A stretch of DNA of 64,000 nt from Eledone cirrhosa (taxonomy: Eukaryota). Position 1 is the stretch's first letter. Every line of letters starts with the position of its first letter. The notes under the pieces are model-generated. The model searched no databases and had not been told where the DNA came from. It was given only the letters and a program-made list of their open reading frames with translations. Location: the NCBI GenBank assembly GCA_964016885.1, contig CAXHJY010000706.1, forward strand, positions 1 to 64,000, in the 5' to 3' direction. A program made the position numbers and the translations under genes. Positions 11,975-54,189 of the stretch are shown here, piece by piece.

Positions 11975-12126
11975 CTATTTGTAAATTTATAAATTTATAA
12001 ATTTATAAATATATAATAAATTGAAGTGAAAGCATCTGGTGCGTGTGTTTCTTATTGGCAACATGACCCTCCCAAAGTATAACAATATCGGTTTCAACAC
12101 ACGATTTCAGATAAAGAATCTTGCTA
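11975..12126 (+). mobile_element. Fragment of the 53.3-54.1 kb hammerhead-bearing element (tail part)
   Basis: AAATTGAAGTGAAAGCATCTGGTGCGTGTGTTTCTTATTGGCAACATGACCCTCCCAAAGTATAACAATATCGG; also at 15893-15985, 53252-53453 and 53979-54115. Confidence 0.8.
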
Positions 12127-14492: not shown

Positions 14493-14529
14493 TAGTAATA
14501 AATGGAAAATATCACTATAGCATCATATT

Positions 14530-14590
14530 TATTCTATTATACGTATTTCAAGGGATACCAAATTATAGTATGCTTTCATCAGATAAAATA
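14530..14590 (-). ncRNA. Minimal type-I hammerhead ribozyme (family 1, copy B)
   Basis: Minus strand: TATTTTAT-CTGATGA-AAGCATACTATAATTTGGTATCCCTT-GAAA-TACGTA-TA-ATAGAATA; 8-bp stem I, AAG/CTT-closed stem II, palindromic loop III. Confidence 0.8.
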
Positions 14591-14814
14591 AAATGTTTGA
14601 TGCAAAAGATAGTGACATACCTAAAGTATAAACTTTCAACTTCAGCTTACAGTGGCATGTGGAATGAAAAATATATTTGTATATATATATGTGTGTGTGT
14701 TAAGTATTTCCATAGAAGAGGTAAAGTAACGAAGAGTGCTCTGTGTATAGTACAGAGGTATTTAATTATTTTCCTTTGTAATTTTTACATGCCCCAAAAA
14801 AATACATATATATA

Positions 14815-15872: not shown

Positions 15873-16039
15873 CTATATATATATATATATATTACTTGGC
15901 AACATGACCCTCCCAAAGTATAACAATATCGGTTTCAACACACGATTTCAGATAAAGAATCTTGCTAAACAAATTCAGAAACGAAATATATATATATATA
16001 TATATAGATATATAGATATATATTACTATATATATATAT

Positions 16040-40652: not shown

Positions 40653-41305
40653 TTGCAGACATATATGCACGCCGCCTCAGCCAGCACACACGCACAAGTT
40701 TTATGGCTCACATTTGTATGTTTCATTCTCTATCGTATTTTTAAATACCGTATTCTGACTTCATGTCGATAAGGCGGTGGTGGAGATAGCGTTGCCGTCG
40801 TCGGTGGTCGATGGTAAGGGCTGGGTGGGTGGGTGGTTTGTAATGGATTGCTGTTTTTATTGTTATTTACTACCAAATCAACCCTAATCGAGAGTAGATA
40901 TAAAAGTGTTGTTTTTTTTAATTTATGCACAATGCTAACAATTTATGAGGAGAGATAAGTTGATTACCTCGAATCCCAGTATTTAACTGGTACTTTTTCT
41001 TTTCAACCTTTGAAGGATGAAAGGCTAAGTTGATCTCGGGGGGATTTAAACTCGGAATGTAATGAGCTGTAATTAAATATTGCAAACAGTTTTGTCTAGC
41101 GCTCTAACGATTTATATCTGTATTTTTGACCGTTGGTCAGTCAATGATAAACATTGAGGACCAAATGGAGATATAAAAGATACAGAAGCGAAAACCAACC
41201 AAACAGTGAGTGTGTTCTGTTATTATTTCTGGCAATATTATTACAACAATATGACCCTCCCCAAGTATAACAATATATATATATATATATATATTATGTA
41301 AACAA

Positions 41306-52949: not shown

Positions 52950-53007
<58 letters not shown>

Positions 53008-53009
<2 letters not shown>

Positions 53010-53180
53010 CGAACGAATTGTAGTAACCAGATGGACCATAACGCACCAAAGTACTCAATACTTAGGGTAGTAGAGTGGGTAATAGGAACAAGTATGTCCC
53101 TGACGGCAGAGCTCAAGCCGTTTCGACGGCTATTTCGAAACGGCTTGAGCTCTTCCGTCGGGGTCATACTTGTTCCTATA
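53008..53180. mobile_element. 'GACGGC-GAGCTC' fold-back element
   Basis: Reverse tail plus palindrome at 53082-53180; between (TA)n tracts. Confidence 0.8.
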
Positions 53181-53251
53181 TATATATATATATTATTAAT
53201 TCTGGCAATATTACACAAATATGACCCTCCCCAAGTATAACAATATATATA

Positions 53252-54107
53252 TATATATATTTTGTTTCTGAATTTGTTTAGCAAGATTCTTTATCTGAAA
53301 ACGTGTGTTGAAACCGATATTGTTATACTTTGGGAGGGTCATGTTGCCAATAAGAAACACACGCACCAGTTGCTTTCACTTCAATTTATTATAGATTTAT
53401 AAATTTATAAATTTACAAATCTACAAACTTATAAATTTCTGGTTGGTTGGTTGATATGAGATTAGAGAACATAGAAATAAAAATAGAATCCACACACAGA
53501 AAAGATGCAATGTTTAGGCAAATTACAGAGGCAGTAAGCATAAAAGAATTACAACCAAAATTAAATAGAAAATATGAGTGGAACAGTAACATCACAACTT
53601 ACAATTAAGGACAAAATGAAAACACACATAGGACAAAATGAAAACACACACACACATAGAACAAACAACTTACAATTAAGGACAAAATGAAAACACACAC
53701 AGGACAAAATGAAAACACACACACACATAGAACAAACAACCAACCAACAATAAATAAATAAATAAATAAACAAATAGATAAATGAACACAAACACACACA
53801 GACACCCGGATGTGGCGCATGCGCAAACTGAGCACACAACACACACACAGAAACAAAATGGCGTAGGATAGAAGAAAGGCACAGAAACAAAGAAAGGAAT
53901 CCCCAGTCACTGAAGAGGTCACAGAGTGTGTGACGAAAGGACTATGACTATATATAAACAACTATCTGGTTGTGGAACCAACCAACCAACCAGAAATTTA
54001 TAAGTTTGTAGATTTGTAAATTTATAAATTTATAAATCTATAATAAATTGAAGTGAAAGCAACTGGTGCGTGTGTTTCTTATTGGCAACATGACCCTCCC
54101 AAAGTAT

Positions 54108-54115
<8 letters not shown>
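53252..54115 (+). mobile_element. About 860-bp element with about 137-bp inverted terminal copies and an internal hammerhead (Penelope-like pLTR architecture)
   Basis: Arms 53317-53453 and 53979-54115; internal tandem repeat at about 53594-53740; hammerhead at 53905; (TA)n on both sides. Confidence 0.7.
53905..53949 (+). ncRNA. Minimal type-I hammerhead ribozyme
   Basis: AGTCA-CTGAAGA-G-GTCACA GAGTG TGTGAC-GAAA-GGAC-TA-TGACT; 5-bp stem I, 6-bp stem II, CUA site. Confidence 0.8.

Positions 54116-54189
<74 letters not shown>

What the first reader, a model, noticed from the sequence alone, without database searches (positions are those of the whole stretch)
53252..54115. Inverted-terminal element carrying a third hammerhead family (53905-53949)
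Seen: about 137-bp near-identical inverted arms enclose about 525 bp of non-coding sequence. This ends in a compact hammerhead (AGUCA/UGACU stem I, GUCACA/UGUGAC stem II, CUA site) 30 nt before the right arm. Arm fragments recur at 11975, 15893, 41215-41275 and 53195-53245, always at TA runs. Established: Penelope-like elements often carry an inverted partial pLTR at the 5' end and hammerheads within pLTRs. Inference: this is the most complete non-autonomous unit in the window, and it could be mis-annotated as a TIR DNA transposon.
Basis: partly seen in the sequence, partly recalled or inferred. Interest (0 to 1): 0.75.

Follow-up and report, generated by a model that had tools for sequence, protein, structure and literature searches.

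The report
Truncated, inverted Penelope-like retrotransposon copy
This is a shortened, partly flipped copy of a protein-coding Penelope-type jumping gene with a predicted self-cutting RNA motif, a known kind of element, but its relatives almost always have one short end and one long end, which likely records the enzyme copying RNA into both sides of one DNA cut from two fixed starting points.

Summary
The inverted arms (53317-53453 and 53979-54115, 100% identical) and the hammerhead motif (53905-53949) are real. The interior is not all non-coding: 53459-53608 is the end of a reverse transcriptase plus GIY-YIG endonuclease gene. The genome holds many 98-99% identical long copies, one with an intact 1,269-residue ORF. 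So this is a 5'-truncated copy with an inverted 5' piece from an autonomous, Neptune/Nematis-type Penelope-like element. It is neither a non-autonomous unit nor a TIR transposon. The layout (inverted copy, one-sided tail, minimal hammerhead, TA targets) is published. Family statistics add detail. 58 of 59 two-armed insertions have exactly one tailed end, on the longer or shorter arm about equally often. 5' ends pile up beside a YY1-like motif (11 of 30, and 6 of 20 in a held-out sample) and not at the ribozyme cut (0 and 0). At least two insertions join arms from different subfamilies. Best model: both cut strands prime separately at two fixed RNA sites, often on uncleaved RNA. The scan noted similar layouts in other families of this genome. 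New member of a known kind; moderate interest.

The parts
53244..53259 (.). (TA)n target run at the left end; the boundary with the tail is ambiguous by a few bases
53257..53316 (-). About 59-nt 'tail' on the inverted arm only; it is ORF sequence (codons 9-29), the long (L) end
   Evidence: tblastn: 53342-53256 = residues 1-29, 97%; in 17 long copies the same sequence runs on into the ORF
53317..53453 (-). Inverted, 5'-truncated arm: last 137 bp of the pLTR, including the ORF start (ATG at 53342-53340)
53454..53458 (.). 5-nt filler at the head-to-head junction that matches neither arm's continuation
   Evidence: gap 5
53459..53608 (+). Last 49 codons and stop of the RT/GIY-YIG ORF (end of the endonuclease, with the conserved E and N of 'ITEAVSIKELQPKLN')
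   Evidence: 96% to residues 1221-1269 of the intact ORF in L074
53594..53735 (+). 71-bp tandem duplication at the start of the 3' UTR/pLTR; length varies between copies
53815..53824 (+). Palindromic GC box resembling an NRF1 site (label recalled, binding not tested); also kept in the sister family
53837..53863 (+). Zone where 5' ends of family copies pile up; contains a YY1-like motif (53854-53863). Inferred transcription start of the element
   Evidence: YY1 core and L1 analogy from passages of PMC11602158 and PMC10620060
53905..53949 (+). Minimal type I hammerhead motif: stem I 5 bp, CUGAAGA, extra G, stem II 6 bp, GAAA, 2-bp stem III, CUA; predicted cut after 53944
   Evidence: stem II kept by two double changes in the sister family
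53979..54115 (+). 3' end of the main arm (pLTR end with ATG at 54090); stops at the short (S) end, no tail
54112..54187 (.). (TA)n target run at the right end

Best explanation
This is one insertion of a protein-coding Penelope-like retrotransposon, made of a 5'-truncated main copy and a shorter inverted copy, and it was likely written by the element's own enzyme priming separately on both strands of a cut TA repeat at two fixed RNA sites 59 nt apart. [quoted passage not shown] (2) Shown: insertions end at two fixed points inside the ORF start, one of each per two-armed insertion. (3) Inferred: the endonuclease makes a staggered double-strand cut and two RT active sites, probably a dimer, each extend one strand, one from each site. 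(4) Inferred: the two cDNAs stop at variable points and are joined head-to-head through short overlaps or filler bases. (5) Inferred: many cDNAs run off the RNA 5' end at a YY1-positioned start, so those templates were not cut by the hammerhead. The hammerhead is conserved but probably weak alone and would need a second copy or protein help.
For: Intact 1,269-aa ORF in L074. Model pLDDT 89, best Foldseek match a telomerase RT, E 3e-8. C-C-C linker and YIG residues invariant in 40 homologs. One short plus one tailed end in 39 of 40 insertions not selected on the tail (p 4e-11), 10 of 10 selected on it, and 9 of 9 in a held-out sample. Tail on the longer arm 17, shorter arm 16, equal 11 of 44, which excludes simple fold-back of one cDNA for the 16. 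125 of 147 termini are followed by >=3 TA units against 9% of random positions. Duplications of 13, 11 and 7 bp flank whole two-armed units at non-TA sites (L046, L056, L031), so both arms come from one event. Arms of one insertion are closer than other copies (median 0.8% vs 2.3%, n=39), but L093 has arms from different subfamilies (12 of 33 diagnostic sites). 5' starts: 32 of 137 in a 27-nt zone at the YY1-like motif, 3 of 137 within 13 nt of the ribozyme cut. In vitro precedent: two internal RT starts that define the tail, both strands cut and extended, hammerhead not needed (PMC11167929).
Against: No RNA or biochemical data for this family; steps 3-5 rest on insertion structures. One two-armed locus (L014) has two short ends. 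In the anole enzyme the two start sites were used alike on both strands in vitro (PMC11167929), so strict one-of-each use is not shown there. The first sample required the hammerhead region and inflates the pooled 32 of 137. Pfam support is weak: RVT_1 E 3e-4 below cutoff on one half-ORF, no GIY-YIG hit on the protein itself; I-TevI match only E 0.22. Foldseek TM-scores are low (0.35) and group II intron RTs score nearly as well. 11 of 17 long copies carry a 5' pLTR reaching beyond the inferred start, which a simple linear transcript does not explain.
Confidence: 0.7

Rival explanations
1. Same element, but the inverted arm arises by self-priming or fold-back (of an antisense RNA or of the first cDNA), not by a second priming on target DNA.
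For: Proposed for rotifer Penelopes (PMC3846280 Discussion). Many short insertions are near-perfect palindromes, 11 of 44 have equal arms, and 32 of 36 arm pairs differ at <=1 diagnostic site.
Against: In 16 of 44 insertions, including the window copy, the tailed arm is the shorter one, so neither arm contains the other. L093 and L014 join arms of different subfamilies. The antisense-RNA version was not tested directly.
Confidence: 0.12
2. The main template is a circular RNA made by hammerhead cleavage at both pLTRs; priming on the circle gives more-than-unit copies, and only the short copies come from linear RNA.
For: 11 of 17 long copies have a 5' pLTR reaching past the inferred start, and none of the 17 showed a complete upstream unit within the stretch fetched. 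The two pLTRs of one copy differ by about 1%, like arm pairs. The hammerhead is conserved with compensatory changes. Circle model proposed in PMC4209133.
Against: No pile-up of 5' ends at the cut site (3 of 137; 0 of 30; 0 of 20), which linear cleaved RNA should give. The motif is minimal, and such motifs cleave poorly in vitro (PMC4209133). A template jump at the RNA 5' end explains the same copies. This rival is compatible with two-sided priming.
Confidence: 0.25
3. The pile-up of 5' ends marks a reverse transcriptase pause or a joining hot spot (CA/A-rich microhomology), not the transcription start.
For: The zone is CA- and A-rich, and junctions often show short overlaps (24 of 57). No RNA data are available.
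Against: The sister family has a different, AAAT-rich upstream sequence, yet 5 of its 20 sampled loci also begin within about 25 nt of the same YY1-like motif (read). The strong palindrome 30 nt upstream collects only 1 of 137 starts. Mouse L1 truncations and start sites cluster at YY1 sites (PMC10620060).
Confidence: 0.2
4. A non-autonomous pLTR-derived element (retrozyme-like or MITE-like) with fixed inverted ends, or a TIR DNA transposon.
For: Perfect 137-bp inverted arms and TA flanks look like TIRs. Short pLTR-only palindromes are common in the family.
Against: The interior carries the ORF end in frame. No sampled locus repeats the window's two breakpoints as a unit, arm lengths vary widely, the two ends differ by the tail, target duplications vary in length, and the family protein is an RT.
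Confidence: 0.02

Closest known systems
Endonuclease-bearing Penelope-like elements, Neptune/Nematis type (Craig et al. 2021, PMC8557442)
   Same: Single ORF with RT and C-terminal GIY-YIG; CX2-5CxxC linker and CCHH-type motif; 5' truncation, partial tandems, inverted 5' copy, one-sided tail, hammerhead in the pLTR, (TA)n targets.
   Different: Tail is about 59 nt against the 30-40 bp described; ORF is 1,269 aa with an Asn/His/Thr-rich stretch in the N-terminal half; DKG reads DKS. Neptune versus Nematis not resolved by a tree.
Poseidon_Ac of Anolis carolinensis (Frangieh et al. 2024, PMC11167929)
   Same: Two fixed ends inside the 5' part of the ORF define the tail; AT-rich targets; no sign that hammerhead cleavage shapes insertions.
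   Different: In Poseidon_Ac the hammerhead overlaps the start codon; here the cut site lies about 150 nt upstream of it. The Penelope/Poseidon clade lacks the Cys linker (PMC8557442). One-of-each use of the two sites per insertion was not reported in the parts I read.
Minimal PLE hammerheads (Cervera and De la Pena 2014, PMC4209133)
   Same: [quoted passage not shown]
   Different: Nothing substantial; a new sequence family. Cleavage untested.
Adineta vaga Penelope elements (PMC3846280)
   Same: pLTR includes the first codons of the ORF and the tail extends them; inverted pLTR; asparagine-rich inserts lengthen the ORF.
   Different: The N-rich stretch here lies upstream of the RT. A self-priming model was proposed there, which these arm geometries do not favour.
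Non-LTR retrozymes (bioRxiv 10.64898/2026.07.22.740005)
   Same: Type I hammerhead, PLE pLTR affinity.
   Different: Retrozymes are non-coding tandem repeats; this copy has one hammerhead, coding sequence and no tandem unit.

Membership tests
EN+ Penelope-like elements | Single ORF with telomerase-like RT | tested here: met
   Intact 1,269-aa ORF with Y[VL]DD; AlphaFold model's best Foldseek match is a telomerase RT, E 3e-8, TM 0.35. Pfam RVT_1 below cutoff.
EN+ Penelope-like elements | C-terminal GIY-YIG endonuclease with CCHH-type motif and R, H, E, N residues | tested here: met
   VY..YIGE..R..EH..H..EA..LN seen directly; Y601, C605, Y617, G619 invariant in 40 homologs. Profile support is weak: I-TevI E 0.22, Pfam GIY-YIG only on distant homolog P0057.
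EN+ Penelope-like elements | pLTR-ORF-pLTR partial tandems, 5' truncation, inverted 5' copy | tested here: met
   17 copies run from a 5' pLTR into the ORF; 57 head-to-head junctions.
EN+ Penelope-like elements | One-sided tail derived from the ORF start | tested here: met
   58 of 59 two-armed insertions; tail = codons 9-29. Longer than the published 30-40 bp.
EN+ Penelope-like elements | Hammerhead motif in the pLTR | tested here: met
   Motif and covariation.
EN+ Penelope-like elements | Hammerhead self-cleavage | not testable with these tools
   Needs an assay; no genomic trace of cleavage.
Neptune/Nematis clades | CX2-5CxxC linker between RT and EN | tested here: met
   CIDKKCITC; C578, C583, C586 invariant; criterion from PMC8557442.
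Neptune/Nematis clades | Placement in an RT tree with named Neptune and Nematis references | not tested
   No named reference sequences were among the tool results; homologs are unnamed or 'hypothetical'.
Hydra clade PLE | CxCX5C linker, no CCHH | tested here: not met
   Linker is CX4CxxC and the CCHH-type residues are present.
Naiad/Chlamys PLE | N-terminal endonuclease, no canonical hammerhead | tested here: not met
   EN is C-terminal; hammerhead present.
TIR DNA transposon / MITE | Fixed-length, symmetric terminal inverted repeats | tested here: not met
   Arms vary from tens of bases to over 3 kb and the two ends differ.
TIR DNA transposon / MITE | Fixed-length TSD and DDE transposase partner | tested here: not met
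   Duplications of 7, 11 and 13 bp at readable sites; 34 of 44 unreadable in pure TA; the family protein is an RT.
Non-LTR retrozyme | Non-coding tandem repeats each with a hammerhead | tested here: not met
   Single hammerhead, coding interior.

The most novel reading that the evidence does not exclude
Penelope-like elements integrate through an asymmetric two-enzyme complex that always starts one cDNA at each of two fixed sites in the 5' end of the ORF, sometimes on two different RNA molecules. Because those sites sit only about 290 and 345 nt from a YY1-positioned transcription start, the first product is a 'strong-stop' cDNA: it either ends there (the observed pile-up) or jumps to the 3' pLTR, as retroviral minus-strand DNA does, and so rebuilds the pseudo-LTRs. 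This family, with an intact ORF, would be a direct in vitro test.
Probability: 0.3. Interest if true: 0.72.

Novelty: new member of a known kind. Interest (0 to 1): 0.38.

Why it matters
The copy itself is ordinary. It matters for annotation, because such two-armed insertions are easily filed as TIR transposons or non-autonomous elements. How Penelope-like elements form inverted copies, tails and pseudo-LTRs is stated as open in PMC8557442 and PMC11167929. This young family gives countable rules: one tail per insertion, 5' ends at a likely promoter and not at the ribozyme cut, and occasional arms from two donors. With an intact ORF in hand, those rules predict specific outcomes in the existing in vitro assay.

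Tried and rejected
Rfam scan: no hammerhead among the 150 of 268 matches shown; these were mostly microsatellite-driven miRNA hits. Folding energy gave no support for the hammerhead or for a hairpin at the two ends (z -1.37 to +0.91); the hammerhead fold without stem III is 1.3 kcal/mol above the minimum and the stem III dimer duplex only -1.7 kcal/mol. Test for a recombination break at the inferred start site: none; subfamily markers stay linked across it in 70 long arms, so frequent jumps between different subfamilies are not supported. Test for 5' ends at the ribozyme cut: no enrichment. Sequencing runs: no RNA holder listed; no reads were laid, so expression and RNA ends remain open. No dimer prediction was obtained, so dimerization rests on the anole paper's model only. 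Literature searches for YY1 with Penelope (0 papers), twin priming (3 listings, none on PLE mechanism by title), strong-stop (1 unrelated listing), octopus hammerheads and tails found no report of the counts given here. The library lacks most subscription papers, and I read no supplements, which may hold such counts or this family's sequence.

Full report
Observation. The arms 53317-53453 and 53979-54115 are 100% complementary over 137 bp with 525 nt between them. A type I hammerhead motif lies at 53905-53949: stem I of 5 bp, core CUGAAGA, one extra G, stem II of 6 bp, GAAA, a 2-bp stem III with a GA loop, and CUA, so the predicted cut follows A53944. With stem II >=6 and stem I >=5 required, it is the only hit in the window, against none in 100 shuffled windows. 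Rfam showed no hammerhead among the 150 of 268 matches listed and the motif does not fold better than shuffles. That is expected for minimal PLE hammerheads, whose described features (extra nucleotide between 9 and 10.1, long stem II, short stem I, small palindromic stem III) it matches (PMC4209133, parts 1-2 of 4 read).

The interior is partly coding. Copies elsewhere in the 3.0-Gb genome continue upstream of 53459 into an ORF. L031 shows the whole layout: an inverted 2.1-kb truncated copy, then a pLTR remnant, ORF, pLTR and tail. A search with the ORF's 5' part gave 40 of 40 scored candidates at 98-100% identity. Of 22 long copies examined, one (L074) has an intact ORF of 1,269 residues. Against it, window 53459-53605 is residues 1221-1269 (96%), and 53342-53256 on the minus strand is residues 1-29 (97%). 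The window's main arm differs from L074 at 9 of 624 aligned bases. So the window holds the last 49 codons and pLTR in one direction, and the pLTR end plus ORF start in the other, joined head-to-head by 5 filler bases.

The protein. It has Y[VL]DD, a CX4CxxC linker and a C-terminal VY...YIGE...R...EH...EA...LN domain; the three linker cysteines, Y601, C605, Y617 and G619 are invariant in a 40-sequence alignment. The best named homolog is a hypothetical RT protein labelled Octopus vulgaris, 68% identical, so the host is likely an octopus. An AlphaFold model of residues 566-1269 (pLDDT 89) matches telomerase RT best (E 3e-8, TM 0.35), with group II intron RTs close behind. Pfam evidence is weak and the I-TevI match is E 0.22. 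By the motif criteria in PMC8557442 (passages) this is a Neptune- or Nematis-type element, not Hydra, Naiad or Penelope/Poseidon; no tree was built.

Ends. Copies end at two fixed points 59 nt apart inside the ORF start: short (window 54115) and long (with tail). Of 147 unique termini, 72 are short, 75 long, and 125 are followed by at least three TA units, against 9% of random positions in the same loci. One search listed 57 head-to-head junctions. I dropped 10 where one arm left the fetched stretch, was interrupted or was an internal piece (L032, L040, L042, L050, L059, L062, L073, L077, L090, L097) and added three with wider gaps or overlaps by hand (the first L016 insertion, L014, L089). 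Of these 50, 49 have one short and one long end: 39 of 40 not selected on the tail (p 4e-11 against 0.5) and 10 of 10 selected on it; L014 has two short ends. A held-out search gave 24 further loci, 20 of them new insertions; 9 were two-armed with both ends visible and all 9 were mixed, and 3 more had one end out of view (counted by eye). The tail is on the longer arm in 17, the shorter in 16 and equal arms in 11 of 44. At 34 of 44 sites the flanks are pure TA; at readable sites direct repeats of 13, 11 and 7 bp flank the whole two-armed unit. The two arms therefore belong to one event with a staggered cut, and the structure is not a TIR element.

Templates. Arms of one insertion differ by a median 0.8% against 2.3% to other copies (n=39, p 9e-6), and 32 of 36 pairs differ at no more than one diagnostic site. 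L093 differs at 12 of 33 with a clean junction, and L014 joins an old and a young subfamily. So arms usually share a donor lineage, but two RNAs can contribute; gene conversion or a second insertion is not excluded for those two.

5' ends. Of 137 arms with a visible 5' start, 32 begin in a 27-nt zone (window 53837-53863) at a YY1-like motif, and 3 begin within 13 nt of the ribozyme cut. The pooled number is inflated by the first query. In the tail-selected sample it is 11 of 30 against 0 of 30 (p 2e-9 among the 19 starts in a 450-nt range), and in the held-out sample 6 of 20 against 0 of 20. YY1's core is GCCAT and it sets the start of human L1; mouse L1 truncations and start sites cluster at it (passages of PMC11602158 and PMC10620060). 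I infer that the zone is the RNA's 5' end. An NRF1-like palindrome (label recalled) lies 40 nt upstream. A sister family, whose ends are the fragments at 41110-41276 and 53195-53246, has an otherwise different pLTR but keeps both motifs, the two ends, and a hammerhead whose stem II is preserved by two double changes. That comparison is one split between two families, not many independent events, and its stem I is imperfect.

Unexplained. 11 of 17 copies that run from a 5' pLTR into the ORF have pLTRs reaching upstream of the inferred start, 1 ends near it and 5 downstream. A linear RNA starting there cannot template these without a jump to the 3' pLTR, a circular RNA, or a longer tandem source. 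Subfamily markers show no break at the start site, so any jump is mostly within one donor lineage.

Mechanism. The element's enzyme likely cuts both strands of an AT-rich target, and two RT sites each prime a cDNA, one at each fixed RNA site; the cDNAs stop at variable points and join head-to-head. This fits the anole Poseidon enzyme, which cuts and extends both strands, starts at two internal sites that define the tail, is predicted to be a dimer, and does not need hammerhead cleavage (PMC11167929, parts 1-2 of 4 and passages). Fold-back of one cDNA fails for the 16 insertions, including this one, where the tailed arm is the shorter. Self-priming on antisense RNA (PMC3846280, passages and Discussion) was not tested directly. 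A circular template (PMC4209133) remains possible for the long copies.

Novelty. The layout is published, so this is a new family of a known kind. The counts were not found in my searches (listings only, limited library, no supplements read; part 1 of 5 of bioRxiv 10.64898/2026.07.22.740005 read). Earlier notes of this scan describe the same layout in other, mostly non-coding families of this genome (read after my own counts); they are not independent support. What this family adds is an intact autonomous ORF and a promoter-linked pile-up separate from the ribozyme. Interest 0.38.

Noticed in passing
window 53008-53178: A short palindromic insertion of another family sits just left of the finding, between TA runs. 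Its two arms begin at a fixed point beside a GAAAC half-motif, and one end carries a tail of about 77 nt while the other does not; most of the 12 loci fetched (including the window and one overlapping pair) show the same layout.
   Followed up: partly
window 41110-41276 and 53195-53246: 3' ends of a sister Penelope-like family with the same ORF start, a related GIY-YIG end, its own hammerhead (CUU site) and the same short and long ends, plus an intermediate end about 45 nt into the tail.
   Followed up: partly
window 52953-54187: Three different Penelope-type insertions are stacked in consecutive TA runs, suggesting each insertion leaves a target for the next.
   Followed up: no
window 14528-14592, minus strand: Another hammerhead-like motif with a palindromic stem III; related motifs occur in L016 and L041.
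   Followed up: no
window 11978-12126 and 15896-15987: Two more short copies of the focal family: one ends partway through the tail, the other has the full tail.
   Followed up: partly
L074 ORF residues about 250-470: Asn/His/Thr-rich, microsatellite-like stretch inside the intact ORF, variable in length between copies; recalls the N-rich inserts of Adineta Penelopes (PMC3846280).
   Followed up: no
L039 7910-9703, minus strand: An unrelated Penelope-like ORF with DKT, RWK and CxCX5C motifs, the Hydra-clade signature in PMC8557442.
   Followed up: no
hammerhead across subfamilies (L085, L058, window): Older copies have a CUU site, an AA loop and a 4-bp stem I; younger ones have CUA, a GA loop and a 5-bp stem I, a shift towards a more canonical motif.
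   Followed up: partly
L002, L053, L157, L003, L041: Apparently single-armed copies carry tiny (6-20 nt) inverted remnants of the opposite end type, so the one-of-each rule may extend to them; seen by eye and not included in the counts.
   Followed up: partly
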